Shown: positions 13,913 to 63,537 of the stretch, piece after piece
Layout: the number at the start of each line of letters is the position of its first letter
Numbering within the stretch: position 1 is the first letter of the stretch
NCBI GenBank assembly: GCA_016784965.1
Contig: JADHTQ010000004.1
Span: 17,990-81,989, forward strand
Direction: 5' to 3'
DNA from: Bacteriovoracaceae bacterium
GTDB taxonomy: Bacteria; Bdellovibrionota; Bacteriovoracia; Bacteriovoracales; Bacteriovoracaceae
DNA: 64,000 nucleotides
Notes under the pieces: generated by a model
The model's input: the letters and a program-made list of their open reading frames with translations, nothing else
The model's database searches: none
What the model was told of the DNA's origin: nothing
Made by a program: the position numbers and the translations under genes

Positions 13913-14030
13913 CGCGGACAATCCTCCGCATAATTTATCGGTATTTTTGGCATTTAACTTTAAAATCAAAGGGTTGTTGTGGCCCTGTTTGCCAATTTTT
14001 AAGTGCCTAGGGCCCAAACAAAGCATTTAG

Positions 14031-34780: not shown

Positions 34781-34834
34781 TTTGTACCTCCATACATATT
34801 TTCTATCAATTTCAACTAGTTTTCAACTATAACT

Positions 34835-35578: not shown

Positions 35579-35581
35579 AAT

Positions 35582-37825: not shown

Positions 37826-38859
37826 TACTTACTATCCCGACTTTTATCACCAAAACATTCTGTCGTTCCGACCTCAACACCCATTTTTTCTTCTACTGTA
37901 GTAATATTTTTAAGTGCTGCTTGATAGTCTTCGTGTTCTGGATATTTTTCCAATAGTCGAATTACAGAACAATAAGAAATAAATGCCGATTCATATTTCA
38001 AAGCTTCTGTTTCCTGCCTGGCCCTTTGAAAATGTACATCTATTTCAGCATCTAAATTTTGTTGGGCCTTATTTAAATAATAACTAGCACGACCATTTTT
38101 GGGGCTTAAAATAAGCGCTAAGTTAAATTCTGCTATGGCCCTAAAGAAATTACCTTCGCGCAACTCTCTTTGCCCGCGATGAAGTATCACATCTAATTTG
38201 CCTTTAATTTCATTGTCCTCTTCACGCATTTTTTTTTGCACAAGCTCAGTAAAGCTGTCTGTTGCGTCCTGCAAACCCGTCATGTTTTTTTTACTATAAA
38301 CTCTTTTCTTTTTTGGTTTTTCATCTCCCATAAACATATAAAGCAATACTCCCACACAACCAAACAGTACCAACCTAACACGGGTTTTTTGTTTTTGTTT
38401 CTCAGCTAATTCGTGCTCACTAAGGTTTGTCTCTTTTGTGTCCTCTTCCTCCTCGTCATCATCTTCATCTGTATTTTTTGCCTCTACTAGTGCCTTTTTT
38501 TGGGGATCATCTACATTAACTATATTGTACTTAAAAACTGTTTTGCCAATTATAATCGTATCTGCGTCTTTTAAACTTTGTTGTCCAATTTTTAAATCAT
38601 TAACTATCAAACCATTTTGTGAACCTAGGTCTGTGACCACATAAGTATTTTTAAATCTTTGTAGTTCTGCATGCTCTCTGGATGATTTATTATCTATGAC
38701 CATAATATCAGCTTTATCACCTCTGCCCATAACAACTCTGTTACCCTCAAGAAAGTATGACACTCCTTTGTTTTTTCCCGTCATGCATAGCAGGCGGTGA
38801 TGAATACCTGGCGCTGTCGGTAACTTGAAATTGCTAAGCTGTGTTACATTTTTGGACAT
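37825..38859 (-). CDS. FHA domain, single-pass membrane protein with TPR-like C-terminal region
   Basis: VVMGRGDKADIMVIDNKSSREHAEL...SQNGLIVN FHA motifs, DEDDDEEEED linker, TM helix VRLVLFGCVGVLLYMFMG and TPR-like repeats. 1-nt TAATG overlap with the downstream FHA gene. Confidence 0.8.
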   Translation of the reverse strand: MSKNVTQLSNFKLPTAPGIHHRLLCMTGKNKGVSYFLEGNRVVMGRGDKADIMVIDNKSSREHAELQRFKNTYVVTDLGSQNGLIVNDLKIGQQSLKDADTIIIGKTVFKYNIVNVDDPQKKALVEAKNTDEDDDEEEEDTKETNLSEHELAEKQKQKTRVRLVLFGCVGVLLYMFMGDEKPKKKRVYSKKNMTGLQDATDSFTELVQKKMREEDNEIKGKLDVILHRGQRELREGNFFRAIAEFNLALILSPKNGRASYYLNKAQQNLDAEIDVHFQRARQETEALKYESAFISYCSVIRLLEKYPEHEDYQAALKNITTVEEKMGVEVGTTECFGDKSRDSK

Positions 38860-38866
38860 TTACTTT

Positions 38867-40432
38867 TTAACTCTCCTGGATAAAGGTTATATAAAATGCC
38901 TTGGCAAAATTATCCTTTCCCATAATTGAGGTTACATATAAATTAAAATTCCTACCTGTAAGCTCATAACTACCATCTTGGCTAGTACCTCCATTGTTTG
39001 CAGAATTATCACATAGCTCAATTAAAGTTGCAGCAAATCCTCTCTCTTTGGCCACATCTAGAATGTTTTGTCCTTGAGAGACTGACATTCTAATACCGGT
39101 AATGTCTTCAGCATCTACATTTAACCGTTGTACATTTTTGGAAGAATCCAAAATCATAACCGGGACACCTGCTCCATTCATAAATTCTGCCAAAGATGTT
39201 ACATAAGGGGCATCATCTTCGGCTTCACCAAATTCTTCCTCTGTTCCATCACTTTGCAATTCTCTAATTCGCTGCAAAGTAGTATTTACTGCATTTTTTA
39301 AACTATCCAGCTCACCCATTAAATATTTGCCTTCAATCCCTTTTCTTTTGCCCCTTAGGGCCTCTTCCATTTGTAATGTCAGCTCTTCGATCGGTCTTAA
39401 AGTTAAAAAATAAATTACACCAAAAAATAACACTGCCACCAAAGCAGAAGTGGTGAGCGATTCTAAGTATGCCTTCGAATTTTTTGCGGCCTCTATCGCC
39501 AAAGATTTTGGACGAAATCTAATGGCAATTATTCCAACGGGCTCCATCGCCCCAGATTTAGCGTTATAGGCCATAATCCTTCCGGCAATACCGATTTGTC
39601 CACCTGGGAGCATTTTCTTTATAATACTGGTTCCTTCCCCCTTTACATTAACTGCCCACTCTCTGGCTTGAATGGAGAATGTATCTGAAATGAAATCATT
39701 GAGCTGTCCAATTGGCCTAACAATTCTACCTTCCAAATCAAACAGTTCGTAAGAAGCGACTCCCTGTTCTTTTTCCAAAAAGTTGGTGTTAACATTATCA
39801 AGATTATTTTGCTCAAGGGCGACAGCATTCATCCTGGCTATCTCATCAGCAAAGTGCTCCCCTCTTTTTGCAGTTTCCCATAGCAGAAGCTTCTTGCTAT
39901 CTTGTAAAACTGGAAAAATTGTAAGAGTAATTGTCACAAAGACAAATAAAGTAAGAATTAGCGCTATTAATATTTTCCACTCATATTCCTCATTGATTCC
40001 ATAAAGCAAAAGCATCAGCTTATACTTGAATTTATGCTTAATTTTTGCAATTAAACCAACAGGTACTTCATTACTACCATCAAGTGCTAACTGGGCACCA
40101 TCTTCATCGCTTTCTACTTCTTTGTGGATAATGATCTTTTTTTCCTTAACCAAAACTACTTGAATAATCAAGTTAGGTAGAGCAATTTTATCACCGCTTT
40201 TAACCGTCGCTCTTTTGATCATTTTTCCGTTCAAAAAAGTACCATTGGCACTTCCTTGATCTTCAACATACATTGCATCTTCTGTCACTGTAACACTAAG
40301 ATGTTTTTTAGAAACTCCAGGAACATCTATGCTTATATCTGCATCGGGGTCTCTTCCTAAAATATTTTCTCCCTCAGCAAGCTCAAACTCTTGCCCCCTT
40401 AATTTCCCAGCAACAATTACTAATTTATACAT
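38867..40432 (-). CDS. FHA domain, two-TM sensor-like protein with HAMP-like and PAS-like C-terminal regions
   Basis: NILGRDPDADISIDVPGVSKKHLSV...SANGTFLNG FHA motifs. Two TM helices flank a ~150-aa loop. An amphipathic HAMP-like linker precedes a C-terminal ~110-aa alpha/beta module. Confidence 0.7.
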   Translation of the reverse strand: MYKLVIVAGKLRGQEFELAEGENILGRDPDADISIDVPGVSKKHLSVTVTEDAMYVEDQGSANGTFLNGKMIKRATVKSGDKIALPNLIIQVVLVKEKKIIIHKEVESDEDGAQLALDGSNEVPVGLIAKIKHKFKYKLMLLLYGINEEYEWKILIALILTLFVFVTITLTIFPVLQDSKKLLLWETAKRGEHFADEIARMNAVALEQNNLDNVNTNFLEKEQGVASYELFDLEGRIVRPIGQLNDFISDTFSIQAREWAVNVKGEGTSIIKKMLPGGQIGIAGRIMAYNAKSGAMEPVGIIAIRFRPKSLAIEAAKNSKAYLESLTTSALVAVLFFGVIYFLTLRPIEELTLQMEEALRGKRKGIEGKYLMGELDSLKNAVNTTLQRIRELQSDGTEEEFGEAEDDAPYVTSLAEFMNGAGVPVMILDSSKNVQRLNVDAEDITGIRMSVSQGQNILDVAKERGFAATLIELCDNSANNGGTSQDGSYELTGRNFNLYVTSIMGKDNFAKAFYITFIQES

Positions 40433-51406: not shown

Positions 51407-51634
51407 ATGGCAAAACAAGTTAGATTACTAAAATGTAAAATTGGAAAACCTTTCAGTGAGATCACTACAAGGTATGCAGTTGTTAGACCAAGCTCACTTC
51501 CAGACATGGTCACTCGTTATGGAATTATGCCTATGCCACCAAGGCCCTCATCAAACACTGTAAAAGTGGGAAGAACTTATAACATTGAATGTGAAAATGT
51601 CTTTACAAGAGACACTTACAGTGATGAAGAATAG
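51407..51634 (+). CDS. 75-aa candidate RiPP precursor peptide
   Basis: Strong RBS (AAGGAG 7 nt before the ATG). Lies immediately upstream of the radical SAM/SPASM gene. Internal duplicated motif TRYAVV-RPSS / TRYGIMPMPP-RPSS. Acidic C-terminal tail. Confidence 0.5.
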   Translation: MAKQVRLLKCKIGKPFSEITTRYAVVRPSSLPDMVTRYGIMPMPPRPSSNTVKVGRTYNIECENVFTRDTYSDEE

Positions 51635-51681
51635 GTCATAAAAATCTTTTACATATCTTAATTGATATGTAGTATAAATTA

Positions 51682-51722
51682 GGGTCAGGTTTGTTTTTTA
51701 AAAAGACAAATTTGGCCCTTTT
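51682..51722 (+). terminator. hairpin plus short T-run between precursor candidate and maturase (possible attenuating terminator)
   Basis: GGGUCAGGUUUGU (51682-51694) pairs with ACAAAUUUGGCCC (51706-51718): 13 bp including three G-U pairs and an 11-nt loop, followed by TTTT. A second 8-bp hairpin, TACATATC/GATATGTA, lies just upstream. Confidence 0.4.
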
Positions 51723-51748
51723 AAATTAAGTTAAGGGAAGGGAATGTC

Positions 51749-52837
51749 ATGGTCTCACAAATATCGAAACTATATAAGCCAGACTTTAAACCGTCTGAAC
51801 TACCACCTGAATATACCCCAAGGTCCGTGGTTTTAGAGACCACTTTTGCCTGCAATATGAGGTGCCGCCATTGTGGGACTTCGTGTGGTGATATTAAAAC
51901 TGATGAGTTATCTCTAACAGAACACTTACAGTTAGCTAGTGAGCTGGCGTCTCTGGGTACCAAAGAAATATTTCTTTCTGGTGGAGAAGCATTGATGAAT
52001 CCCGACTGGATCACAATCGCCAATAAGTACGACGAGCTTGGAGTTCGCGTAGTTTTGCTATCTAATGGACTCTTAATTCCAAAAAATATTGAGGCAATTA
52101 AAAAGGCCCCTTTAGATCAAATTGCTATCAGCATTGATGGAATGGAAAAGACCCATGACCATATAAGAAAAGTTAAAGGCTCTTTTAAAAAATGCCTAGA
52201 AGCAATCACACTGATTGAAAAACAAACATCAATTAATACCTCAGTCATAACCACAGTATCAAAGTGGAATATCTCTGAGCTAGAAGATCTATATCAGGCG
52301 TTAATTGCTGTAGATAATCGTTTATGGCAACTACAAAGAGTCTTCCCCACCGGTAGAATGGATAAAGATTTCATTTTAGATTTTGATGATATTGAAAAGC
52401 TTCACAAATTTATCCATGATAAAAGACAAAATCAGTCTAAAATGATTATCACTGCTGCTTGTGATGCAACGCCGTTTTCTAAGTACAATACCAGGGATAT
52501 TGGCGACCAATATATGGGGTGTCCTGCAGGACTTGTCTGTTTGGGAATTGAGGCAAATGGCAACGTTAAAGGCTGCTTGACTCAATCTGAAGAATTTATA
52601 GAAGGAAATGTACGAAAGAAGGGGTTAACTGAAATTTGGAATAACCCTTATAATTTTGCATATAATCGTTTTTTTCACGACGATAAAGTAAAAAAGGGGT
52701 GTGTTGGTTGCGCTTATCTTGAAGATTGTCGTTGCGGTTGTGCCATCCAAGCATTTGCTGAGTCTGGTGACCGCTATGATCAGCTATTTTGTCTAAACTC
52801 ACAATATTTCAAAGACTATAATGAACAAAATAAATGA
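51749..52837 (+). CDS. radical SAM enzyme with C-terminal SPASM domain (peptide-modifying maturase-like)
   Basis: CNMRCRHC (CX3CX2C) near the N-terminus. C-terminal Cys-rich region GCPAGLVCLGIEANGNVKGC...GCVGCAYLEDCRCGCA is typical of SPASM auxiliary clusters. 362 aa. Confidence 0.8.
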   Translation: MVSQISKLYKPDFKPSELPPEYTPRSVVLETTFACNMRCRHCGTSCGDIKTDELSLTEHLQLASELASLGTKEIFLSGGEALMNPDWITIANKYDELGVRVVLLSNGLLIPKNIEAIKKAPLDQIAISIDGMEKTHDHIRKVKGSFKKCLEAITLIEKQTSINTSVITTVSKWNISELEDLYQALIAVDNRLWQLQRVFPTGRMDKDFILDFDDIEKLHKFIHDKRQNQSKMIITAACDATPFSKYNTRDIGDQYMGCPAGLVCLGIEANGNVKGCLTQSEEFIEGNVRKKGLTEIWNNPYNFAYNRFFHDDKVKKGCVGCAYLEDCRCGCAIQAFAESGDRYDQLFCLNSQYFKDYNEQNK

Positions 52838-54953
52838 TGAAAAACGATATTCATATGCTTATTTACTAAAATATTTCTACTCATTTGTAAAAAAATACAT
52901 CTTACAAGAATTTGCCGTTACACTCTTAATTGGACTAAGTATCACCGTTAATATCGGCATTCCTCTTATCAATAAAACCTTGGTAGATGATGCTATTATT
53001 GCCAAAGATCTATCTCTGCTTTTTAATATCTTATATATCTACATCGGTATCATTTTGGGGGGACAGCTAATTAACGTCACTATGGAGTACTTGCAAAACA
53101 GTGTGCAAGAGAAGATCTCCATGGATATTTATAAAATGCTGTTTAAAAAAATGCTTAGTATGAAGATGCTACCTCTTAACAACTTTTCCAACACAGAGAT
53201 AGTTAATCGCTTTATCATGGATGCAGATGCCATCAAATCTTTAATCGCTGACTTTTTTATTACGGTACTCACCCAAATAATTTATTTTTTGGGTATCCTG
53301 GTGGTGATGCTGTCGCTTTCATGGAAGCTAACTATACTGGCATTAATTCCAGTCCCCATTTACCTGGTCACTTTTTTATTCTTTAATAAAAAGATCAGAG
53401 TTATTTCTAGGCTCCTTCGCAATAAGTTTGATAACTTAACCCAATTTATTAATGAGAGTTTTTTGGGGTCTACTGAGATAAGAATTTCAGGTAGCACCAA
53501 TTTTGTGTATTCAAAGTTTCAAGATAAAATCCTCTCTATTTTCAATGTGGCAATGAAAAGTGTCGTCCAAAGTAATGCCATTTCAGTAGTCATAGGTCTT
53601 ATAACCGCTTCGGGCAACTTGATTTTATGGTTTTATGGAGGATATTTAGTTATCGAAGGCCAGCTAAGCTTGGGCACCCTCTTTGCGCTTTCTGCTTATA
53701 TCGGTCAATTATACGATCCCATAAATATCTTGGCAGGTAGAAATTTTAAAATTCAATCTTCAATCTTTGCCATCGAGCGAATCCATGATTTTTTAAACCA
53801 ACCCCAGGAGCCCCTTTGGGATCAAAGCGAGTCTAAATATGAAAAAGGCTTTAGGGATTCTATCAAAGTATCAGGACTATCATTTAATTACCCAGAATCA
53901 ACTGATCTTGTAATCGATAATAAATCATTTGAGATAAATAAGGGTGATCGAATTTTGTTAACCGGTGCTAATGGATCGGGCAAGTCTACATTCATCAATA
54001 TTTTACTTCGCTTATATGATCACCAGCTAGGTGTAATTAAAATTGATAACACAAACATCCAACAAATTCCCATCCAGCAGTATAGAAGCCTATTTGCTTA
54101 TGTGCCTCAACACCCCTTTTTATTTGAAGGAACTGCTACCAGTAACATCTCGATGTTAGATACAAACGCTAACTTAAACAATTTTAAAAAATTCTTATCT
54201 AGGCTGCCTTTTTTAGACTTCTTCTCTAAAAAAAGTGGTCCCTATTCGGTCAGCAACAATGGCAACAACTTATCAGGTGGACAAAAGCAAAAGCTCAGCC
54301 TACTTAGATCTCTATACAAAGATGCACCAATAATCATTATAGATGAAGGGACTTCCAATATTGATGCCGAGTCTCTTTCTAAATTTGATCAATTTATTGA
54401 AAATAATTTGCAAGACAAAACTATCATCAGGGTTTCCCATAACCAAAATGAACATCTAAAAAATTATAAATTTATCCATTTTGACCGCATCATGCCCCAA
54501 GTATATCAAGATAAAATTATAAAATTAATACAAGAAAATAAACTAGACAGTGCAAAAGAGGCAATTGAGTCCCTGTTAAAGCATTATCAAGACATCAATT
54601 TATTTAAAAACTTGGCCTTTATAAAGTATATGCAAGGCAATTTCTCTGAATGCCTTACACTTAATCAAAAGGCATTACAAATTGATCCCGGTGATGTCTA
54701 CGCCACCAAGGGGCTAGGTCTGGCCTTCGCTAAACTGGGAGACTTAGAAAAAGGAATAGAGCATTTAAAGTCGGCCCAAACCCTTGATTCGACATACTTT
54801 GATCCATTTTACGACATGGCCGTAATATACTACGAAAATGGACAATTTGAAAATGCCTTAAAAACACTAAAGTTGACTCCTGTTAGCTCAAATGAGGAGC
54901 GGGACTTAGTTGCAAACTTTATCCAGAGTATAAAAAAAGATGACAAGATATAA
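52821..54953 (+). CDS. ABC exporter (fused TMD-NBD) with C-terminal TPR extension
   Basis: Six predicted TM helices, Walker A GANGSGKST, signature LSGGQKQKLSLLRSL and Walker B IIIIDEGTS. A ~150-aa TPR-like tail follows (FKNLAFIKYMQGNFSECLTLNQKALQIDP...). No N-terminal C39 peptidase domain. Overlaps the rSAM gene by 17 nt. Confidence 0.8.
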   Translation: MNKINDEKRYSYAYLLKYFYSFVKKYILQEFAVTLLIGLSITVNIGIPLINKTLVDDAIIAKDLSLLFNILYIYIGIILGGQLINVTMEYLQNSVQEKISMDIYKMLFKKMLSMKMLPLNNFSNTEIVNRFIMDADAIKSLIADFFITVLTQIIYFLGILVVMLSLSWKLTILALIPVPIYLVTFLFFNKKIRVISRLLRNKFDNLTQFINESFLGSTEIRISGSTNFVYSKFQDKILSIFNVAMKSVVQSNAISVVIGLITASGNLILWFYGGYLVIEGQLSLGTLFALSAYIGQLYDPINILAGRNFKIQSSIFAIERIHDFLNQPQEPLWDQSESKYEKGFRDSIKVSGLSFNYPESTDLVIDNKSFEINKGDRILLTGANGSGKSTFINILLRLYDHQLGVIKIDNTNIQQIPIQQYRSLFAYVPQHPFLFEGTATSNISMLDTNANLNNFKKFLSRLPFLDFFSKKSGPYSVSNNGNNLSGGQKQKLSLLRSLYKDAPIIIIDEGTSNIDAESLSKFDQFIENNLQDKTIIRVSHNQNEHLKNYKFIHFDRIMPQVYQDKIIKLIQENKLDSAKEAIESLLKHYQDINLFKNLAFIKYMQGNFSECLTLNQKALQIDPGDVYATKGLGLAFAKLGDLEKGIEHLKSAQTLDSTYFDPFYDMAVIYYENGQFENALKTLKLTPVSSNEERDLVANFIQSIKKDDKI

Positions 54954-55882: not shown

Positions 55883-57043
55883 TTAGATCCAGACTCCGGG
55901 TATCTGCTCGCCACAGGAGCACTTGCCACCTTGTAATAAATTATTTTGGATACTATATCCATTTCTTTTAATTACATGGGTTTTGCATTTTGGGCAGATT
56001 GTATCTTGATAGTCACTACCTGGGACATTTCCTACATAAACAAAATGAAGGCCTGCAACTTTGGCCACTCTGTAGGCTTCCTCTAAAAGGGGGATCGGGG
56101 TAGAAGGAAGATAGCGCAAATTGTACGCTGGATGAAATCGAGAAAAATGCAGTGGCACATCCCTGCCTAAATTTTCTACAATCCACTTACACATCTGCTC
56201 TATATCTTTTAAATCATCTGAGTGGTGGGGAACAACTAACCTGGTGATCTCTATCCAAACATCATTTTGTCGCATAATCTCAAGGCCCTTTAAAACTGGG
56301 GCAAGCTGAGCATTGGTCATTTTTTTATAAAAAGAATTACTAAAACTTTTTAAATCTACATTGGCGGCATCAATTGATTTACATAACTGCTTTAAGGGTG
56401 ACTCGTTTATATATCCCGCTGTTACTAACACATTTTTAACATTATTGTTTTTGGCCACAAGGGCCGTATCTTCTACATATTCATAAAAAATTATGGGCTC
56501 TGAGTAGGTATAGGCAATTGAAGTAAGTTTTTTCGCTTTTGTTAGCTCCACTACCTTTTGTGGCATTAGGTCCATATTTGTAGTTTCGCCTGGACGAGAT
56601 TGAGATATTTCCCAGTTTTGACAGTTTGAGCAGCGCAAATTACAACCGGCAGTGGCCAAGGATAAAATACCTGTTCCGGGTAAAAAATGATAAAGGGGCT
56701 TTTTTTCTATGGGATCAATGTGCAAGGCACAGGGGTTACCATAGGCCACAGTATACAACTGATTATTTTTAACTACCCTTGTTCGACAAAAACCTCGATC
56801 ATTTTCGGCCAATATGCATTGATGAGGACATAAACTACATTCCACCATACCACCAACACTACTTTGCCATAGGGCCTTTTTAGACCACTTCCACAAATTT
56901 GCTGGTGCATCGTTATAAAACCCTACTCTGAGCCCATAACGATTATTTCCAGTTATTATGTCATTGATCGTATAAGCGCCTAAAGCTGTGCCACCTGTGG
57001 CTATGATGAACTTTTTTAAAAATGTTCGTCTGGTGACTGACAA
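55883..57043 (-). CDS. AmmeMemoRadiSam-type (PflA-like) radical SAM enzyme carrying an N-terminal twin-arginine signal
   Basis: CSLCPHQCILAENDRGFCRTR, CNLRCSNCQNWEIS (CX3CX2C) and C-terminal CPKC...CSCGEQIPGVW match that family's pattern. The N-terminus (M)SVTRRTFLKKFIIATGGTALGAYT fits the (S/T)RRxFLK Tat consensus. TTG start 7 nt after AAGGAA. Confidence 0.7.
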   Translation of the reverse strand: MSVTRRTFLKKFIIATGGTALGAYTINDIITGNNRYGLRVGFYNDAPANLWKWSKKALWQSSVGGMVECSLCPHQCILAENDRGFCRTRVVKNNQLYTVAYGNPCALHIDPIEKKPLYHFLPGTGILSLATAGCNLRCSNCQNWEISQSRPGETTNMDLMPQKVVELTKAKKLTSIAYTYSEPIIFYEYVEDTALVAKNNNVKNVLVTAGYINESPLKQLCKSIDAANVDLKSFSNSFYKKMTNAQLAPVLKGLEIMRQNDVWIEITRLVVPHHSDDLKDIEQMCKWIVENLGRDVPLHFSRFHPAYNLRYLPSTPIPLLEEAYRVAKVAGLHFVYVGNVPGSDYQDTICPKCKTHVIKRNGYSIQNNLLQGGKCSCGEQIPGVWI

Positions 57044-57121: not shown

Positions 57122-58099
57122 TTAGAAGGCTTTTTTGATCACATTGTCTCGAATGGGGATTGGATCTTGCAAATATTGGTTCAGGGCAGAAACTAGCTTT
57201 TCAATGCTTTCTGATTGTCCCTGTAGAGATCTTACAAGATGTGACATATTTACTACGCCACCTTTATCTTTTGCATGATACCCAACTTTATCCCACAAGG
57301 CCTTAAGGCACTCTTCAAAATCCTCAATGGTTTGGTCTTGCAAGGCATCCGTTGCAAAAAATCCATTTAGTAAGGTTAACACTATAGAGAAAGTAATACC
57401 TACAATACTTGAGTTTAGGGCAAAAGAAATTTGGGTTAAAAAACTTGCAATTACCTCTTTGGCCGATCCCGGATCACCAACTAAGTCAAGTCCGCCAATA
57501 ATGGGCAGAGCACCCATCATTCCCAAAAATGTTCCAAGAATACCAAACACAATCATCAGGCCTGGAATAATTTGTAAAAAGCGACTAAGTGAAGGAATTG
57601 GAAGTATTCCAAATAAAACATTACTATTATTTGATTGCGAAAATATTCTGTGGGAAAACTCTTCAAAATTTGGAGTTCCATCACTTTGGCTGTACAATTC
57701 TTTATGGTGAACATCTTGCACTAGTTCATACAAGCTTATATCATATTTAAAAATAACATCCAACCTAGTCCTACTTTTATCAAACCTTCTGTGTTGATGA
57801 GCTCTTCTTTTGGTTACATACGAATCAAGTGCCTTATCACAAACCTTGTGTACAACCTCTTTATACCTATCGATTATTGACTCATTGTCATGTATATCAT
57901 CTTCTAAGGTTCCCTCTTTGTTGTAATAGTCCATTTCCTTTTTAATAAATACGACAAACCTATTATCGATCTTAAAGCTTTGTTTAATTAACACTTTAAG
58001 GATTATTGAGACAAAAAAGACCACTATCATAGCAGGGACTAAGTTGTTCATGAGACCTAGAACATAAATATTATAAATTTCGCGAAAAATATTTTCCAT
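57122..58099 (-). CDS. MotA/TolQ/ExbB-family proton-channel protein (3-TM ExbB-like topology)
   Basis: IIPGLMIVFGILGTFLGMMGAL carries the family G-x-L-G-T-x-x-GM motif. A second C-terminal TM pair partner is ISFALNSSIVGITFSIVLTLLNG. One N-terminal TM helix and a ~130-aa loop. RBS GAGG lies 13 nt after the upstream stop. Confidence 0.7.
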   Translation of the reverse strand: MENIFREIYNIYVLGLMNNLVPAMIVVFFVSIILKVLIKQSFKIDNRFVVFIKKEMDYYNKEGTLEDDIHDNESIIDRYKEVVHKVCDKALDSYVTKRRAHQHRRFDKSRTRLDVIFKYDISLYELVQDVHHKELYSQSDGTPNFEEFSHRIFSQSNNSNVLFGILPIPSLSRFLQIIPGLMIVFGILGTFLGMMGALPIIGGLDLVGDPGSAKEVIASFLTQISFALNSSIVGITFSIVLTLLNGFFATDALQDQTIEDFEECLKALWDKVGYHAKDKGGVVNMSHLVRSLQGQSESIEKLVSALNQYLQDPIPIRDNVIKKAF

Positions 58100-58112
58100 C
58101 TCTATTACCTCA

Positions 58113-60620
58113 TCACAGTTTTATAGTGTCTAAATATTCTAAATCCTTCTTTGTGAGTGCTTTTACCAGGGAAAGTTTAATTTCTACTCTCCTTGATAAT
58201 CGACAATCATAGGGCCCACATCTTTGTTTATCTGCAACACTGGCCAGCTGTCGTGTAGGAGCAGATAAAACAATGGACTCCGCGTGAGAGCTGCCCTTTA
58301 TAGATGCTATATTTTGCATTTTCCCTCTGTTTTTTAAACTGATGGGAAAAGTTTTATGCTTGTTTATAAATAAAAAGCGGTAAACAGCGGCAGCACGCTG
58401 AAGACTTAGGTCCATATTGTAAGAATGAGCTACCTTATTTACTGCCGTCGGAGAAACATAATGTCCAACGTATCTGGGACTTGAGTGCCCTTCGATGAGA
58501 ATCTTGTCCACTTTGGCCCTTATTTGTTTGTTAGAAAAAAAGTACCTTAAAATTATTTTAGAGGTACGCAAAAGCCTCATTTTCATCCTGGTGCTGAGTA
58601 GATAACTATCAACTTTAAAAAGTAAGTCATTTACAAAGACAAATGAAATTTCATTTTTAATTCTGTCATATTTGACTATGGCATTACCACCAACTGCTCT
58701 TGTTAGTAAGGTCTCTAACTTGTCATAGTTGTTTACTTCTGCAGGGGTGAGAGTTCTATATTTTTGCAGCTGTTGGTTAGCTCGCCTCAAATGACCGAGG
58801 CTCTCTCTTAAAGTGGAGTTGTCCTTACTTAGATCTCTATTTTTTTTGCCTAATCTATCAAGCCCCAATAACTTTAAAAGAGACTTCTCCTGCTGTTTGG
58901 CCTGCTTTGCAAAAGCTCCCCTTTTTAGAGTTTGAAATGGATCAACAGCAGACTGAGCTCGTACAATTTGAGCAGATTTTTCTTTGGCCTTTACTAGTTG
59001 TCTTCGCAGTTTTCCAATTACATTTCTGCTGTTTTGAATTGCCTTATCATTTTCACCAATCATCTCTTTGAGCTGCCCATTGGTCTTTGCTATGCCTTCT
59101 AACTTCTGTCTAACTTTACCACCCATAAGCTTACTCTCGCCCAGGGCATTCTTCAGATCACCAATTTGTTTACGCAGAGCTGACAACATTTCTTGCTGTC
59201 TTTTGACCTGACCGGCAGCATTTTTATTTAACTCCTCCAGTGCCTGCTTTTGACTTTTTGCAACTGAAGCTGTTTTGCGACTTGCCTCTATCATTTTTTC
59301 TTTGGCATGTAGTTGGGCAGTCTTCTCGTTGATTTCATTTTGATTCTTCTGCAGCATCTGTTTATATTTTTCATTAGCCGCTTTTAAATTATTTAACTCA
59401 AGTTGTGCGGCTGTTGCTGTTTTGCGACTTGCCTCTATCATTTTTTCTTGTGCATTTAGTTGGGCCGTCTTCTCATTGATCTCATTTTGATTCTGCTGCA
59501 CCATTTGTTTATATTTCTCATTGGCGACTCTTAAAGTATCTAACTCTTTTTGAGCACTGGCATTTGTCATCTCCCTTTGTTGCAGGGCACTTTTTGCTTC
59601 CGCCATGTCTTTTGAAATTTTATCAATTTTAGCTTTTCTTATTTTTGCTAGCTCTATACTTTTTTGATATTCATCTTTATAGTCTTCTAGTACCTTCTTA
59701 CTATGAACTAGCTCTAATTTAGCGAGTTTTGCGGCCTTGATTAGTTTATCTGTCTGCTTAATTAGCTTTTGCTTCTTACTAATTTCAAGTTGTTTTTGTT
59801 CAATTGTTTGCTTTAATTTACTATTAACTTCCTCAGTTTTAGCAAACTTTTGTTGAACTTGTGAACTCTCCAACTCTCTTTGCTTTAAGCTTTCTTTCAT
59901 CACGTCAATTTTTTTACTTAGCTGTGTTATTTGCTCTTGTTTGTTCTGTGATAGTTGTTCAACTTTTTTATAATCTTCTTCGACAATCTTTTTCTGCTGC
60001 GCCATGGCCTTTTCATGGTCCCTGGCAGCTTTTATCATTTTATTTTTAATCCTTATGACTTCTGCTTTTTTAGATATTTTTTCCTTATTATTTTCAATCT
60101 GTCTTTCATACTCTCGCTTTACATCTTCAAGTTTTTTGAGCTTCACTTTATTTTTTACTACCTTGTCAGCTTCAACTTTTAAATCACTCTCAAGCATCTT
60201 AACTTTTTGAGCAAGGGCCTCAAGTTTGGTGTGCTTTCTTTTACTAAGTGCCGCAATTTTCATGTAATCGGTCTTATAATCTTCAATGATCTTCTTTTGA
60301 TTTTTAACCGTCTCAACAAAGGTATTCATCTCCTGAAGCTTTTGTTGCCAATCTTCCATATCCTTATACGTCTGCTCTAAGGACTCGGTTCTTTTTTGTA
60401 CATTATGGGTAATTTTAGTTGGGATATCTTTGTCAACGTTGATCTTTTCGTCTTCAAATTCCTGCTTTAAAACAGCAGTATTGATCCCTTCTTTTACCGC
60501 ACTAAAAATGTACAACATCAAAAAGATGATAAACAAGACAGTAAAAAGATCACTGTAGCTTGCCCAAAACGTACCATCTTCACCTTGTTTCTTTTTTAAT
60601 TTTTTTGCTAATTTATTCAT
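58113..60620 (-). CDS. MotB-like protein: MotB-type TM/plug with conserved Asp + ~570-aa coiled coil + OmpA-like peptidoglycan-binding domain
   Basis: WASYSDLFTVLFIIFLMLYIF matches the MotB W-x-x-Y-x-D-x-x-T-x-L TM motif. A long K/E/Q-rich heptad region follows. C-terminal IEGHSSPRY...DLSLQRAAAVYRFL...LSRRVEIKL is OmpA-like. Confidence 0.7.
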   Translation of the reverse strand: MNKLAKKLKKKQGEDGTFWASYSDLFTVLFIIFLMLYIFSAVKEGINTAVLKQEFEDEKINVDKDIPTKITHNVQKRTESLEQTYKDMEDWQQKLQEMNTFVETVKNQKKIIEDYKTDYMKIAALSKRKHTKLEALAQKVKMLESDLKVEADKVVKNKVKLKKLEDVKREYERQIENNKEKISKKAEVIRIKNKMIKAARDHEKAMAQQKKIVEEDYKKVEQLSQNKQEQITQLSKKIDVMKESLKQRELESSQVQQKFAKTEEVNSKLKQTIEQKQLEISKKQKLIKQTDKLIKAAKLAKLELVHSKKVLEDYKDEYQKSIELAKIRKAKIDKISKDMAEAKSALQQREMTNASAQKELDTLRVANEKYKQMVQQNQNEINEKTAQLNAQEKMIEASRKTATAAQLELNNLKAANEKYKQMLQKNQNEINEKTAQLHAKEKMIEASRKTASVAKSQKQALEELNKNAAGQVKRQQEMLSALRKQIGDLKNALGESKLMGGKVRQKLEGIAKTNGQLKEMIGENDKAIQNSRNVIGKLRRQLVKAKEKSAQIVRAQSAVDPFQTLKRGAFAKQAKQQEKSLLKLLGLDRLGKKNRDLSKDNSTLRESLGHLRRANQQLQKYRTLTPAEVNNYDKLETLLTRAVGGNAIVKYDRIKNEISFVFVNDLLFKVDSYLLSTRMKMRLLRTSKIILRYFFSNKQIRAKVDKILIEGHSSPRYVGHYVSPTAVNKVAHSYNMDLSLQRAAAVYRFLFINKHKTFPISLKNRGKMQNIASIKGSSHAESIVLSAPTRQLASVADKQRCGPYDCRLSRRVEIKLSLVKALTKKDLEYLDTIKL
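59269..59562 (-). repeat. tandem duplication, 2 x 147 nt (49 aa), inside the coiled-coil region
   Basis: GCTGTTTTGCGACTTGCCTCTATCATTTTTTC... recurs at 59269 and 59416. The protein copies are ANEKYKQMVQQNQNEINEKTAQLNAQEKMIEASRKTA and ANEKYKQMLQKNQNEINEKTAQLHAKEKMIEASRKTA. Confidence 0.85.
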
Positions 60621-60690: not shown

Positions 60691-63537
60691 TCATCGCGCC
60701 AAGCGACTGAAATTAGTTACTATGCCAATAGGACACAGCAGACGACAAAAACTTCTGCGAATAAATATAGACAAAATATTGAAAAAAATGACAGCACCCA
60801 CGATTGTAGCACTGGTGGTGTAGCTGTTATGAAAAAAATAATTATACCAGTCAAAATTAGATGAAGACAGCGATTTAGAGGGACCATCAACTTTTATATA
60901 TAGCCCAATAACCACAATGACAATTACAGCTGAAACAAAGCTGATCAACTTTGATTTTTTTAAACTACTGCGACAAATTTGGGCCTGACCATCTTCTAAA
61001 GTGCCGATGGGACACATTCCATAGCACCACATCTGGCGGTCTAAGTTGATAAGCAGTGCCGCTGGGATAAAATATGCTCGCATAATGCCAAAAACACACT
61101 TTCTAGGACATGCATGACAAAAAATATAAGGTACACTAAAGTAGCATCTAAACAATGGATAAATTGCTAAAGGCCAAAAAGCAAAAAAATAAATCCATGA
61201 AGTATACTTCACATTGAATTGCCATTTGGGGTTGTAGGCGACAGTAATTTTCCAAGCAAGTATTATCAACAAAACATAGTGCAACCAGGGCCTAAGAGAA
61301 AAGGCATACACAATTGCATTGGTTTTTGGTATAACCATTGAAAGTCCAATCCCCCAAAAGATAAATAACATCAATCCATAACTTAAAAATTGCTCTAAAT
61401 TTACGTCCTTAAATGGCCTATAAGCGGATGTAACTTTTGGGATTACAACTAATCCCAAAATTGATGTGATCTTTATAAGCATAATGATCAACAAGGACTT
61501 GTGAATTCCCAAATAGGGGATCATAAATGCACTTATTAAAAATGCTCCCAGCGCTCCTCCCAAAAAATCTAAAGCATAGACAAATCCAGCGGTTTCAGTG
61601 GCGTTTACGGGTGACGTTTTTGCAATGTAGGCCAACTGGCCCCCCAATAAAATACCAAATAGGGTGTTATAAACTGGTGTTGCAAATGCTGAAGATAAGG
61701 GGCCAATTACAATTACAAAAATAAACAAAACAATCAAAAAGTCAGCTTTTAAAAGCAGCCTGGAGGTGTTTAACTTAGATCCAAAGAAGGCACCAATTGC
61801 CAAGCCAAGAATAAAACATGTAATAATAAAACTTAGTTGGTTGTAAAGATATCCAAAACGTATTTGGTATAGCAAAATGAGAATTACTTGCATTCCCATT
61901 GCACTAAAGCTACTAGACAAAAGAGTAAATGAATCCGCAAGCTCACTGCTTTTTGCTAATAAAATAAAGACAACAATAACAATTCCCAAAATTAATAATA
62001 TGGGAATTAAAAGAGTTGCATCTAGCTTTTTTAACCAGTATTGAAAATGATAGTAGTATCCAATGGGTGATAGATCCCGATTTACAAGTGAGTTCGACTG
62101 CACTAAAACTTTTGCCTGTCTTAAGCGATCTGGGGTTAAGATACTTTTTAGATAATTGGAATTGACAAACTTGGTATCTAACTTCTCTTTTTTAATTTTG
62201 TCACCAATGTTGTAACTTAAAGCACTAGCAGATGCCAGAAAATAGTTTTGACCCCCTGGAATTATTATTATCTGCTCAAAACAATTTGCCAGGGCCTTAT
62301 AAACTGATGATGAAAATTGCTTTAACTCTTCAGAGTCGTAATTGGCAGAACTGCTAAGGGCAAAAGACAAAATACCACCTTTACCAAGTGCACCTTTTAC
62401 AATTTTAAAAAATTCTTGAGTATAAAACCTTCCAATTTGTGCATTGATTGGATCGGGCAGATCAATTATAACGACATCGTATTTATGCTCACCTGAAGTG
62501 TTTGCCAAAAATTTGATAGCATCACCACTAATGAAATTAACTTTTGGTTTAGTGATAGTTGATGCTTGTTTTTTGGCAAGAGCTAAAATTAATGGGTTTT
62601 GTTCTACCAGATCAATACTGTTAGCGTCATGGTATTTGGCAACTTCAAATATCAAATTATTAACACCTCCAGAAACAAGCAAAACCCTCTTAGGCAAGGG
62701 GTGTTGAATCATGGCATAATGAACTATCTCTTCTGACTGGCCAACATGAGGTATTGAAGCAATTGGAGTTCCATTTTCATAAATACTTACTTGACCTCTA
62801 TCTTCAGTTATAGCAACAACACCATAAGGAGTTGATTGATGTAGCAATATTTTTTTTGTGGGATATTGTGCTTTTAGTATTTTTTCTTCTAAGGAACCGC
62901 TCACAATTACAACCGGTACAACAATGGCCAGCAAAGTGGCAACTATGCTTAAGCTCTTATACTGGTAGTAATAAGTTAAAACTGCGGCCACAAGCAAGTT
63001 TATTACACACAACAAGACCAATGTTTGGAAGGAGTCCAAAAAATAAACAAGACAAAAACTAAAAAGCAATCCCCCAACTAAATCGCCAAGAGAATCTAGA
63101 AAATATATTTTAGCAACTCCTGCACCTTCTTGATAATCCTTAGTGATTATAAAAACAAAAAAGGTCATTAGGGCACCAGAGAGCAAACAAATTGGCAAAA
63201 GTCCCACAAAAGAGAGCCAAAAGGCTTGAAACAATCCGACAGAAATGCCTACAACAATGATACTTTTGTAAATCGTTAACGCCCAAAACAAAAGCAGTGG
63301 CAAGATGGCGAGGATAAATTGACAAATAATTAAAAGGACTTTTGTATTTTTAATCTTCTGGCCAAATTGGCCAATAAATGCACCCGTGCCTTGAAGAAGC
63401 GCCCAGTTGCCTAAAACCAGACCAATGGTTAGCTCATTGCCAGAAAATAGTGTGAGAAATTCTCTAAGAAAAACAAACTGAGTGATTAAAGCAGAGATTC
63501 CAAGTGAAGTGATACACAAATATATTACATAACTCAT
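60691..63537 (-). CDS. polytopic membrane fusion: N-terminal multi-TM + spermidine-synthase-like (SAM-fold) domain + second multi-TM block + C-terminal CX3CP (NapH/NosR/CcoG-like) module
   Basis: VLLVSGGVNNLIFEVAKY...DLVEQNP...YDVVIIDLPDP...FYTQEFF are SpeE-like motifs flanked by many TM helices. The C-terminal ~200 aa contains FCHACPRKC, WCYGMCPIG and FCRLLCPIG between TM helices. Confidence 0.65.
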   Translation of the reverse strand: MSYVIYLCITSLGISALITQFVFLREFLTLFSGNELTIGLVLGNWALLQGTGAFIGQFGQKIKNTKVLLIICQFILAILPLLLFWALTIYKSIIVVGISVGLFQAFWLSFVGLLPICLLSGALMTFFVFIITKDYQEGAGVAKIYFLDSLGDLVGGLLFSFCLVYFLDSFQTLVLLCVINLLVAAVLTYYYQYKSLSIVATLLAIVVPVVIVSGSLEEKILKAQYPTKKILLHQSTPYGVVAITEDRGQVSIYENGTPIASIPHVGQSEEIVHYAMIQHPLPKRVLLVSGGVNNLIFEVAKYHDANSIDLVEQNPLILALAKKQASTITKPKVNFISGDAIKFLANTSGEHKYDVVIIDLPDPINAQIGRFYTQEFFKIVKGALGKGGILSFALSSSANYDSEELKQFSSSVYKALANCFEQIIIIPGGQNYFLASASALSYNIGDKIKKEKLDTKFVNSNYLKSILTPDRLRQAKVLVQSNSLVNRDLSPIGYYYHFQYWLKKLDATLLIPILLILGIVIVVFILLAKSSELADSFTLLSSSFSAMGMQVILILLYQIRFGYLYNQLSFIITCFILGLAIGAFFGSKLNTSRLLLKADFLIVLFIFVIVIGPLSSAFATPVYNTLFGILLGGQLAYIAKTSPVNATETAGFVYALDFLGGALGAFLISAFMIPYLGIHKSLLIIMLIKITSILGLVVIPKVTSAYRPFKDVNLEQFLSYGLMLFIFWGIGLSMVIPKTNAIVYAFSLRPWLHYVLLIILAWKITVAYNPKWQFNVKYTSWIYFFAFWPLAIYPLFRCYFSVPYIFCHACPRKCVFGIMRAYFIPAALLINLDRQMWCYGMCPIGTLEDGQAQICRSSLKKSKLISFVSAVIVIVVIGLYIKVDGPSKSLSSSNFDWYNYFFHNSYTTSATIVGAVIFFNILSIFIRRSFCRLLCPIGIVTNFSRLAR

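What the first reader, a model, noticed from the sequence alone, without database searches (positions are those of the whole stretch)
57122..60620. Stator-like pair with the long coiled coil on the MotB side and B-then-A gene order
The 835-aa protein has a canonical MotB TM/plug motif with the protonatable Asp (WASYSDLFTVLF) and an OmpA-like C-terminus. About 570 residues of heptad-rich K/E/Q sequence separate them. As one continuous helix, at about 0.15 nm rise per residue, this would span roughly 80 nm. That is several times the usual periplasmic width, so it must fold back, lie along the wall, or reach outside it. The ExbB-like partner of 325 aa follows 13 nt downstream. The order is opposite to motAB, exbBD and tolQR. 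In Zorya defence systems the long tail sits on the MotA-like subunit, so this arrangement differs.
Basis: partly seen in the sequence, partly recalled or inferred. Interest (0 to 1): 0.7.

Follow-up and report, generated by a model that had tools for sequence, protein, structure and literature searches.

The report
Zorya-like motor with periplasmic rod
Two adjacent genes encode an uncharacterised relative of proton-driven membrane motors (closest to the Zorya ZorAB pair) whose wall-binding subunit carries a coiled-coil rod about 90 nm long on the periplasmic side; the pair belongs to a conserved family, mostly in predatory Bdellovibrio-like bacteria, that I could not find described.

Summary
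ORF 58113..60620(-) encodes 835 aa: a MotB/ZorB-type TM helix with the channel Asp (D24), about 600 residues of heptad coiled coil, then an OmpA-type peptidoglycan-binding domain. Thirteen nt downstream, 57122..58099(-) encodes a 325-aa, three-TM A subunit.

Both proteins are closest to Zorya ZorA/ZorB but fail Zorya's defining features. A has no long tail, B has a roughly 600-aa linker where ZorB has none, and there are no effector genes.

The pair is a divergent member of a conserved family:
- About 100 clusters at 50% identity, and 415 loci in species-representative genomes.
- Mostly Bdellovibrionota, plus Desulfobacterales and Gammaproteobacteria MAGs.
- B sits directly upstream of A in 77 of 79 loci.
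- Most Bdellovibrionota loci add a third gene (FHA, long coil, TM), which the window lacks.
- The channel Asp, PG-binding residues and a Cys pair are invariant in 69 B proteins.

Linker indels come in multiples of seven residues, usually single and uncompensated. That favours a parallel in-register rod (about 89 nm here) over a fold-back.

No plasmid or phage copies, curated family or paper was found. I read it as a new architectural variant of the 5:2 ion-driven motors. Its cellular role is unknown.

The parts
58113..60620 (-). B subunit gene, 835 aa: cytoplasmic N-terminus, Asp-bearing TM helix, about 600-aa coiled coil, OmpA-type PG-binding domain
   Evidence: ORF. MotB_plug 30.7 bits above cutoff. 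PADLOC ZorB1 64.5 bits. Identical in an independent assembly.
60486..60620 (-). B aa 1-45: K-rich cytoplasmic N-terminus and TM helix (aa 22-43) with the channel Asp D24 in WASYSDLF
   Evidence: Hydrophobic segment 24-42. TM helix 22-43 in the AF2 model. D24 invariant in 69 of 69 family members. Aligns with ZorB D26 region (role of D26).
58692..60479 (-). B aa 48-643: periplasmic heptad coiled-coil linker, about 600 residues or about 89 nm if extended
   Evidence: Heptad periodicity z of 2-9. No Pro/Gly in aa 68-469. Helical in the AF2 model with short breaks. Family indels in multiples of 7. Linker length 601 aa.
59269..59546 (-). Tandem duplication of 147 nt (49 aa, exactly 7 heptads) inside the coil; 87% nt identity, 38 of 49 aa identical
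   Evidence: TRF. Protein copies compared, and the duplication is present in independent assemblies.
58170..58682 (-). B aa 647-817: OmpA/MotB/ZorB-type peptidoglycan-binding domain with Y734-N735-L738-R742 and the Cys pair C801/C806
   Evidence: Foldseek top hits are PG-binding domains PA0833, YiaD, ZorB 8vvn_B, PomB, MotS and the T6SS anchor, E 2e-6 to 5e-4, target-normalised TM 0.6-0.74. N735, L738, R742, C801 and C806 are 69/69. Same spacing as ZorB Y151/N152/L155/R159.
58100..58112 (-). 13-nt B-A intergenic spacer with GAGG ribosome-binding motif, implying translational coupling
   Evidence: Sequence. Gaps of about 10 nt in relatives.
57122..58099 (-). A subunit gene, 325 aa: tail-less ZorA-like member of the MotA/ExbB/TolQ superfamily with three TM helices
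   Evidence: PADLOC ZorA2 3e-11. PDB ZorA 8qyh E 0.002. AF2 pLDDT 80. Foldseek hits are only 5:2-motor A subunits, ZorA first. Family of about 100 clusters.
57359..57598 (-). A aa 168-247: TM2-loop-TM3 channel core (P179, G186, G189, T190, F191, G193, P199, D205, S230/S231, G234)
   Evidence: Invariant or near-invariant columns in A1 and A2. P179, T190 and S230 align with ZorA P136, T147 and S184 (their roles).

Best explanation
The two genes encode an A5B2-type, proton-driven inner-membrane motor of a distinct, uncharacterised lineage related to Zorya ZorAB.

What is shown:
- B has a MotB/ZorB-type TM helix with the essential Asp, and an intact OmpA-type PG-binding domain.
- About 600 residues of canonical heptad coiled coil lie between them.
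- A is a tail-less, ZorA-like three-TM subunit that retains the Pro/Thr/Ser ion-path residues.
- The pair is conserved as a B-then-A unit across hundreds of species.

What is inferred:
- Five A subunits surround the two B TM helices. Proton flow through D24 drives relative rotation of A and B.
- The two B chains continue in the periplasm as a parallel, in-register two-stranded rod of about 89 nm. The rod ends in a dimeric PG-binding domain.
- The inner membrane to PG gap is only about 9 nm, so the rod must run roughly along the wall or membrane, not across the periplasm. The motor is therefore tethered to a wall site tens of nanometres away.
- The likely role is chromosomal and envelope-mechanical or envelope-sensing, not flagellar rotation, Ton/Tol transport or phage defence.

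In most Bdellovibrionota relatives a third protein (FHA, about 700-aa cytoplasmic coil, TM, periplasmic domain) probably supplies the cytoplasmic partner. The window's copy is a divergent two-gene paralogue type without it.
For: Family assignment.

Folds:
- A model (pLDDT 80) matches only 5:2-motor A subunits, ZorA first.
- The C-terminal domain of B matches PG-binding domains including ZorB, PomB and MotS.

Catalytic and binding residues:
- B D24 is 69/69. Y734 is 65/69; N735, L738 and R742 are 69/69. They have the same spacing as the experimentally required ZorB residues.
- A P179, T190 and S230/S231 align with ZorA P136, T147 and S184.

Periplasmic location:
- K-rich N-terminus (6 K/R against 2 D/E before the TM).
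- Invariant Cys pair, with exactly two Cys in 62 of 69 B proteins.

Coiled coil:
- Periodicity.
- Indels are multiples of 7 in 42% of cases against 14% expected.
- 51 close pairs differ by exactly one heptad-multiple indel.
- The window's own duplication is 7 heptads.

Conservation:
- 103 representatives at E <= 1e-10; 415 loci.
- B is upstream of A in 77 of 79 loci.
- A and B trees place the window with the same relatives, L061 and L069.

Not mobile or defence-like:
- No plasmid or phage hits.
- No Zor effector-like neighbours.
- The A tree clusters largely by taxon.
Against: - Stoichiometry, rotation and PG binding are inferred from homology and were not tested.
- The full-length B model has low confidence (pLDDT 62, pTM 0.32). 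As a monomer model it cannot show the oligomeric state or path of the coil. Its short helix breaks could be real hinges.
- The indel argument disfavours tight antiparallel pairing but does not exclude bends. 26 close pairs do show two same-direction heptad indels.
- A long two-stranded rod is a poor torque-reaction arm, so the simple picture of B fixed and A rotating may be incomplete.
- No functional data exist for any member.
- The nearest relatives are defence proteins, so a defence role is not excluded.
- Only the best 80 of 415 loci were inspected. The 415 may include other ZorA-like proteins.
Confidence: 0.6

Rival explanations
1. A Zorya-like anti-phage system turned inside out. The long periplasmic rod senses envelope or peptidoglycan perturbation by phage, and the motor signals to an unlinked or unknown effector.
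For: The closest profiles and structures for both subunits are ZorA and ZorB. Zorya is proposed to sense envelope perturbation through ZorB PG anchoring. Flanking genes differ between genomes.
Against: - Scores against curated Zorya models are far below cutoffs (28-32 bits against 100-750).
- A has no ZorA tail, which is required for defence and even for motor assembly in E. coli.
- No ZorC/D/E/F/G-like or nuclease genes are adjacent. Flank hits in PADLOC are generic methyltransferase, ABC and radical-SAM similarities.
- No copies on plasmids or phages.
- The family clusters largely by taxon and is dominated by one phylum.
- The conserved third gene in relatives is an FHA/coiled-coil membrane protein, not an effector enzyme.
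Confidence: 0.12
2. A Tol/Ton-like force transducer in one polypeptide. A is held still, and the B dimer rotates inside it. The coiled coil (analogous to TolA domain II) transmits torsion or tension to the wall through the OmpA-like domain (analogous to Pal). It would act as a winch or twisted-rope actuator for envelope constriction, shape or predation-related remodelling.
For: An Asp-bearing trans-pore helix fused directly to a long periplasmic effector has a proposed precedent in TPH-vWA proteins. The K/E/Q/A-rich helical linker resembles TolA-II in composition. A also matches ExbB and TolQ folds. The rod length is free to change in heptad steps. In subtype I, the membrane-anchored C protein could immobilise A.
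Against: The sequence is closer to ZorAB than to ExbBD or TolQR. In the PG-anchored homologues MotB and ZorB, the B subunit is the static part. There are no TolB, Pal, CpoB or TonB-box partners nearby. There is no evidence for rotation of B.
Confidence: 0.2
3. A specialised flagellar or gliding stator unit for the sheathed flagellum or surface gliding of Bdellovibrio-like organisms.
For: B has the MotB_plug signature and a PG-binding domain. Host organisms are motile predators, by general knowledge.
Against: - A lacks a MotA-like cytoplasmic torque domain, and MotA is only a weak, late fold hit.
- No flagellar or gliding genes are adjacent in the window or in 79 loci.
- The family also occurs in Desulfobacterales and Gammaproteobacteria MAGs.
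- A survey of MotAB homologues reports A-then-B order throughout and does not include such proteins.
Confidence: 0.05

Closest known systems
Zorya ZorA/ZorB (type I and II anti-phage systems; PDB 8qyd, 8vvn, 8vvi)
   Same: - Best sequence, profile and fold matches for both subunits.
- B has the channel Asp and a PG-binding domain with the same Y-N-x2-L-x3-R residues.
- A keeps the P/T/S ion-path residues.
- One subunit carries a very long coiled coil of about 70-90 nm.
   Different: - The long coil is on B in the periplasm, not on A in the cytoplasm.
- A is tail-less (325 aa against 729 aa).
- ZorB's PG-binding domain is fused to the TM helix with no linker. Here about 600 residues intervene.
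- Gene order is B then A.
- No ZorC/D/E/F/G genes.
- One Cys pair instead of two disulfides.
- Scores are far below the curated Zorya cutoffs.
- Chromosomal and taxonomically coherent, not found on plasmids or phages.
Flagellar stators MotAB/PomAB
   Same: TM Asp plus OmpA-type PG-binding domain on B. MotB_plug Pfam match above cutoff. Presumed 5:2 architecture.
   Different: The MotB linker is about 50-100 residues and flexible, not a 600-residue coiled coil. A lacks the MotA torque-generating cytoplasmic domain. Gene order is reversed. There is no flagellar context.
SiiA/SiiB of the Salmonella SPI-4 type I secretion system
   Same: MotB-like subunit (PG-binding, essential Asp) encoded before the MotA-like subunit. 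It is a non-flagellar accessory proton channel.
   Different: The SiiA linker is short and intrinsically disordered. SiiAB sits in a T1SS/giant-adhesin operon. No specific sequence relationship was detected here.
TolQRA/ExbBD-TonB and the proposed TPH-vWA force transducers
   Same: A subunit of the same superfamily. A long periplasmic element is coupled to the motor. In TPH-vWA the Asp-bearing helix is fused to the periplasmic effector, as it is here.
   Different: TolA and TonB are separate proteins without the Asp, and they contact outer-membrane partners. Here the distal domain binds PG. The coil is several times longer than TolA domain II. There are no Tol, Pal or TonB-dependent partners nearby.
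GldLM (Bacteroidota gliding/T9SS motor)
   Same: The B-like subunit (GldM) extends a long periplasmic dimeric structure from a 5:2 motor.
   Different: The GldM periplasmic part consists of globular domains that span the periplasm to an outer-membrane ring. It has no PG-binding domain and no coiled coil. The order is A (gldL) then B (gldM), and the taxa differ.

Membership tests
[quoted passage not shown] | B subunit: single N-terminal TM helix with a conserved, essential Asp near its cytoplasmic end | tested here: met
   WASYSD24LF. MotB_plug 30.7 bits above its cutoff of 24. D24 invariant in 69 of 69 relatives.
[quoted passage not shown] | A subunit: polytopic protein with the conserved TM2/TM3 channel core (Pro, Gly and Thr/Ser residues) | tested here: met
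   Pfam MotA_ExbB 21.8 bits, just under its cutoff of 22.9. ZorA profiles down to 3e-11. Fold hits are only A subunits. P179, T190 and S230 align with ZorA P136, T147 and S184.
[quoted passage not shown] | A5B2 stoichiometry and ion-driven rotation | not testable with these tools
   Only monomer predictions were possible. This needs a multimer model, cryo-EM or biochemistry.
Zorya anti-phage system (ZorAB plus effectors) | ZorA with a long C-terminal cytoplasmic coiled-coil tail (about 500 residues, about 70 nm) | tested here: not met
   A is 325 aa with about 75 residues after TM3. The family median is about 326 aa. The ZorA tail is required for Zorya.
Zorya anti-phage system (ZorAB plus effectors) | ZorB PG-binding domain fused to the TM helix without a linker | tested here: not met
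   About 600 residues of coiled coil lie between the TM helix and the PG-binding domain, against no linker in ZorB.
Zorya anti-phage system (ZorAB plus effectors) | Adjacent effector genes (ZorC/ZorD, ZorE, or ZorF/ZorG) | tested here: not met
   No such PADLOC hits in eight flanking proteins. Neighbours are a spermidine-synthase-like membrane protein and a radical-SAM enzyme. There is no conserved effector in 79 loci.
Zorya anti-phage system (ZorAB plus effectors) | Scores above curated ZorA/ZorB model cutoffs | tested here: not met
   NCBIfam ZorA models score 16-32 bits against cutoffs of 100-750.
OmpA-like peptidoglycan-binding domain (on B) | OmpA/MotB C-terminal fold with the PG-contacting Y-N-x2-L-x3-R (NxxLSxxRA) motif | tested here: met
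   Pfam OmpA 21.9 bits is below its cutoff of 27.2. The fold search gives PG-binding domains at E 2e-6 to 5e-4, target-normalised TM 0.6-0.74. YNMDLSLQRA is present, with N, L and R 69/69. Actual PG binding was not tested.
Flagellar stator MotAB/PomAB | MotA cytoplasmic torque-generating domain, flagellar gene context and A-then-B order | tested here: not met
   MotA is a weak fold hit at rank 37. No flagellar genes are nearby. The order is B then A.
Tol-Pal / Ton systems | Separate TolA/TonB transducer and TolB/Pal or TonB-dependent partners in the locus | tested here: not met
   None are present in the window flanks or as conserved neighbours.

The most novel reading that the evidence does not exclude
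This is a previously undescribed class of 5:2 motor, an inside-out Zorya. The stator dimer continues as a parallel coiled-coil rod of 60-120 nm lying within the periplasm and pinned to peptidoglycan. The device would be a motor-driven periplasmic tether, torsion rod or winch. It would be a vertically inherited envelope machine of Bdellovibrionota, normally working with an FHA-tipped cytoplasmic coiled-coil membrane protein. It could be relevant to predatory cell mechanics, shape or envelope sensing.
Probability: 0.3. Interest if true: 0.85.

Novelty: new variant of a known kind. Interest (0 to 1): 0.66.

Why it matters
All characterised 5:2 ion-driven motors (MotAB, ExbBD, TolQR, GldLM, ZorAB) couple proton flow to a different output structure. 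Each new output has revealed new biology.

Here the output-sized element, a coiled coil as long as the ZorA tail, is on the wall-anchored B subunit in the periplasm. It is about ten times longer than the membrane-to-wall gap. That poses a concrete mechanical puzzle which cryo-ET and genetics could address in cultivable hosts such as Peredibacter, Halobacteriovorax/Bacteriovorax sp. BSW11_IV and Pseudobacteriovorax.

The family also bears on how ZorAB evolved. A tail-less ZorA-like core with a separately encoded membrane-anchored coiled-coil protein may be an ancestral form or a split form.

It is also a caution for defence-system annotation. ZorA and ZorB profiles hit these proteins although the locus lacks every defining Zorya feature.

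Tried and rejected
- **Word-indexed homology search with full-length B.** Coiled-coil low complexity dominated. It returned only five distant relatives and missed the self-hit. The exhaustive search was run with A instead.
- **Third-gene (C) orthologue in the window.** tblastn found only FHA-domain matches to unrelated genes at 36.8-40.4 kb. There is no C orthologue.
- **Promoter and terminator scan of 55.5-64 kb.** Counts were not above shuffled expectation, so operon boundaries were not settled. A promoter-like site lies between A and the downstream radical-SAM gene.
- **Self-BLAST of B for internal repeats.** It printed nothing useful. TRF on the DNA found the 147-nt duplication.
- **Plasmid and phage searches with A.** No match.
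- **Literature searches.** Terms covered ZorA-like; MotB-like with coiled-coil and periplasmic; Bdellovibrio with MotB, coiled-coil and FHA; and surveys of 5:2 motors. No description of this family was found. The MotAB survey covers only A-then-B pairs.
- **PDB sequence search with the C-terminal domain of a relative's C protein.** Only chance-level hits.
- **Flagellar-stator and Tol/Ton membership.** Considered and rejected (see membership test).
- **Assembly artefact or spurious long ORF.** Rejected, because independent assemblies agree.
- **Exact-sequence look-up of B.** It failed although the same 835-aa ORF is called on ENA contigs. I treated this as an indexing gap and not as evidence against the ORF.


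Full report
**1. The observation**

ORF 58113..60620(-) encodes 835 aa, and ORF 57122..58099(-) encodes 325 aa. They are separated by 13 nt (TGAGGTAATAGAG) that contain a GAGG ribosome-binding motif.

The window comes from a Bacteriovoracaceae MAG (Bdellovibrionota). The A-like protein is NCBI MBL6988649.1, annotated 'hypothetical protein'. The same locus, with an 835-aa B ORF, was assembled independently in other samples. One copy is identical and one differs by a single residue. The long ORF and its internal repeat are therefore not assembly artefacts.

**2. Anatomy of B**

The N-terminus is K-rich (6 K/R against 2 D/E before the TM). It precedes one hydrophobic helix at aa 22-43 that carries WASYSD24LF.

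Pfam MotB_plug scores 30.7 bits, above its cutoff of 24. Pfam OmpA scores 21.9, below its cutoff of 27.2. PADLOC ZorB1 scores 64.5 bits over both ends of the protein.

The region from about aa 48 to 643 is coiled coil:
- There is no Pro or Gly between residues 68 and 469, and the composition is K 17.6%, E 10%, L 10%, Q 10%.
- The 3.5-residue hydrophobic periodicity is significant against shuffles (z about 2-9) from about 57 to 644. It vanishes in the C-terminal domain.
- The AF2 model has low confidence (pLDDT 62) but is helical from 48 to 643. Its short breaks are at 122-127, 305-311, 452-458, 495-500, 560-563, 585-586 and 623-625.
- A 147-nt tandem duplication (59269..59546; 87% identity) adds 49 residues, exactly seven heptads.

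Residues 647-817 form an alpha/beta domain. Its best PDB fold matches are OmpA-type peptidoglycan-binding domains: PA0833, YiaD, ZorB 8vvn_B, a MotB-like protein, PomB, MotS and the T6SS wall anchor. E-values run from 2e-6 to 5e-4, and TM-scores normalised to the target are 0.6-0.74.

The sequence YNMDLSLQR reproduces the spacing of ZorB Y151/N152/L155/R159. Those residues are needed for PG binding and defence in E. coli.

**3. Anatomy of A**

There are three hydrophobic helices at about 18-40, 168-202 and 210-247. A helical cytoplasmic region of about 125 residues lies between TM1 and TM2, and about 75 residues follow TM3 (AF2 pLDDT 80).

Pfam MotA_ExbB scores 21.8, just below its cutoff of 22.9. 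ZorA profiles reach 3e-11, and NCBIfam ZorA models reach 8e-8 but score far below their cutoffs. The closest PDB sequences are ZorA chains.

Every convincing fold hit is an A subunit of a 5:2 motor. ZorA comes first, then ExbB, TolQ and MotA. The scores are modest: E from 4e-3, probability about 1.0, TM 0.3-0.5.

In the HMMER alignment, A P179, T190 and S230 fall on ZorA P136, T147 and S184. T147 and S184 form the ZorA ion-selectivity filter around ZorB D26. P179 and S231 are invariant and T190 is at least 90% conserved in the family.

**4. The family**

An exhaustive HMMER search of 1.84 billion representatives with A gave 152 hits at E <= 1e-3 and 103 at E <= 1e-10. Nearly all are about 300-aa proteins aligned over residues 18-272. 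ZorA-sized proteins (500-740 aa) appear only in the weak tail. The window's A is alone in its 50%-identity cluster, and its best relative is 32-35% identical.

A pattern and tblastn scan of one genome per species found 415 loci, and the best 80 were fetched. Most are Bdellovibrionota: Bacteriovoracaceae, Halobacteriovoraceae, Pseudobdellovibrionaceae and Oligoflexia. Cultured hosts include Peredibacter sp. HCB2-198 and Bacteriovorax sp. BSW11_IV, and adds Pseudobacteriovorax antillogorgiicola. There are also Desulfobacterales and Gammaproteobacteria MAGs.

ORF-level analysis shows a B-like ORF ending about 10 nt before A on the same strand in 77 of 79 loci. The two exceptions are at contig edges. 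No other neighbour is conserved apart from a third gene.

Three subtypes emerge:

| Subtype | Genes | B length | Loci and taxa |
|---|---|---|---|
| I | B-A-C | 550-650 aa | 42 loci, mainstream Bdellovibrionota |
| II | B-A plus a ~250-aa multi-TM protein | 700-860 aa | Desulfobacterales, 7 loci |
| III | B-A only | linker 315-828 aa | Gammaproteobacteria MAGs, second copies in some Bdellovibrionota, and the window |

In subtype I, C is an N-terminal FHA domain, about 700 aa of coil, a TM segment and a conserved terminal domain of about 170 aa. Two MAGs carry two loci each (L006 with L075, and L028 with L070).

The window's A and B both branch with L061 and L069, so the two subunits co-evolve.

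Thirteen of the 68 related full-length B proteins (69 with the window's) exceed 700 aa. All thirteen come from Desulfobacterales-type, Gammaproteobacteria or Halobacteriovorax loci.

Across the 69 full-length B proteins:
- D24, N735, L738, S739, R742, C801 and C806 are invariant.
- Y734 is conserved in 65 of 69.
- 62 of 69 have exactly two cysteines. That fits a periplasmic disulfide, and hence a periplasmic C-terminal domain.

At the family level, 37 of 42 A proteins match PADLOC ZorA1, against 14 of 42 for Pfam MotA_ExbB. No NCBIfam model reaches its cutoff for any subunit of any subtype. Source annotations are 'hypothetical protein' or a generic MotA/TolQ/ExbB label. The precomputed Pfam label is PF28082 'ZorA-like_t1', mostly as a weak hit.

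**5. What the linker looks like**

I compared indels in the linker between related B proteins of 45-98% identity. Their lengths peak at 7, 14, 21, 28, 35, 42 and 49 residues. Multiples of seven make up 42% of events, or 49% of those of at least 3 residues, against 14% expected. Lengths of 3 and 4 residues (stammer and stutter) are also enriched. These pairwise events are not independent. Collapsed to unique events, the enrichment persists (158 of 645).

Among 196 close pairs (60-98% identity), the counts were:
- 49 have no linker indel.
- 51 differ by exactly one indel that is a multiple of seven.
- 26 have two such indels in the same direction.

Examples include a single 7-aa indel, and unequal 14 + 35 indels at different positions.

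Uncompensated heptad-quantum indels are what a parallel, in-register homodimeric coiled coil tolerates. A tightly paired antiparallel hairpin would need length-matched changes in both arms. This is an inference, not a structure, and hinges remain possible.

At 0.148 nm per residue the linker is about 89 nm in the window (601 aa). It is about 58 nm in subtype I, which is tightly distributed with a median of 389 aa and a maximum of 413. It reaches about 123 nm in the longest relative. The inner membrane to PG distance in E. coli is about 9 nm. The rod therefore cannot stand perpendicular to the membrane. It must run roughly parallel to the wall or bend strongly.

**6. Mechanism**

Shown: both halves of a MotB/ZorB-type subunit and a ZorA-like channel subunit are present. 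Their ion-path and PG-binding residues are intact, and the pair is conserved and co-evolving.

Inferred from established knowledge of MotAB and ZorAB:
- An A5B2 complex forms.
- Protons pass via D24 and drive relative rotation.
- The dimeric PG-binding domain pins the far end of the B2 rod to the wall.

I consider it most likely that this is a chromosomal envelope-mechanical or envelope-sensing device rather than a defence system. The motor would be tethered to a wall site tens of nanometres away.

Which part moves is open. A long two-stranded rod is torsionally soft. The motor may therefore wind or tension the rod (the winch-like rival) rather than use it as a rigid reaction arm. In subtype I the C protein is the obvious cytoplasmic partner. 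The window's pair lacks it and may act alone or with an unlinked partner.

**7. Comparison with known systems**

The pair works like, and is related to, ZorAB. It nevertheless fails the Zorya membership features that could be tested: no ZorA tail, no direct TM-to-PGBD fusion, no effector genes and sub-threshold scores.

It is not a flagellar stator, because it has no MotA torque domain and no flagellar context. It is not a Tol or Ton system, because it has none of their partners.

B-then-A order has a precedent in SiiA/SiiB. Fusion of an Asp-bearing trans-pore helix to a long periplasmic element has a proposed precedent in TPH-vWA proteins. GldM is another B-like subunit with a long periplasmic extension, but it is built of globular domains (my own knowledge).

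No plasmid or phage carries a relative. I found no paper describing the family. The library is limited to open-access papers and bioRxiv.

**8. Verdict**

The locus is a new architectural variant of the 5:2 ion-driven motor kind. It belongs to a sizeable, unnamed family whose cellular function is unknown.

The main uncertainties are the oligomeric state and path of the rod, which subunit rotates, and the biological role.

Noticed in passing
L038:10996-14364 (Peredibacter), L010:10639-13437, L002:10991-14305 and 39 other loci: In most Bdellovibrionota relatives a third gene follows A. It encodes an N-terminal FHA (YscD-like) domain, about 700 aa of coiled coil, one TM segment and a conserved C-terminal domain of about 170 aa. 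That domain has no Pfam, NCBIfam or PDB match. The result is long coiled coils on both sides of the membrane. The window has no orthologue.
   Followed up: partly
L014:10829-11587, L066, L011, L020, L007, L015, L058: Desulfobacterales-type loci replace the FHA protein with a conserved ~250-aa protein that has an N-terminal helical part and about four TM segments. It has no family match.
   Followed up: partly
window 33452..40432 (-): A cluster of three FHA-domain proteins (747, 344 and 521 aa), a PP2C-type phosphatase (247 aa) and a response-regulator protein (442 aa). It looks like a Ser/Thr phospho-signalling module, 17 kb from the motor pair. Only its FHA domains resemble the family's third gene.
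   Followed up: partly
window 51407..54953 (+): A small 75-aa ORF, a radical-SAM/SPASM enzyme (362 aa) and an ABC transporter fused to TPR repeats (710 aa). The layout resembles a RiPP maturation and export cluster. The PADLOC pVip match for the radical-SAM enzyme (81 bits) is probably generic radical-SAM similarity.
   Followed up: no
window 60691..63537 (-): Directly upstream of B, 70 nt away on the same strand, is a 948-aa polytopic membrane protein. It has a spermidine-synthase-like domain in the middle and a NapH-like 4Fe-4S motif at its C-terminus. This is an unusual fusion. It is not conserved next to the pair in other genomes.
   Followed up: no
window 55883..57043 (-): Directly downstream of A (78 nt) is an AmmeMemoRadiSam-system radical SAM enzyme (TIGR04337, 387 bits). 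No obvious AMMECR1 or Memo partner genes are adjacent. A promoter-like site lies in the gap.
   Followed up: no
window 6644..14026 (-): A 2460-aa ORF whose only Pfam match is LVIVD repeats near the C-terminus. It may be a giant surface or secreted protein.
   Followed up: no
alignment A1 (A-family proteins), C-terminal columns: After TM3 the A subunits have highly variable, often acidic low-complexity tails. Many end in small residues such as -AA, -RAA or -KAA, reminiscent of a C-terminal degradation tag. The window's A ends in -KKAF.
   Followed up: no
L006 + L075 (Oligoflexus sp. JTS-AC419); L028 + L070 (MAG SRP200020_co2_210): Some genomes carry two copies of the module from different subtypes. 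The window's two-gene copy may therefore coexist with a three-gene copy elsewhere in its genome.
   Followed up: no
L003:110-2720: A different ZorA-like arrangement: a 514-aa A protein with a coiled-coil tail, followed (A-then-B) by a 357-aa OmpA-domain protein. It illustrates intermediate architectures between Zorya and this family.
   Followed up: no
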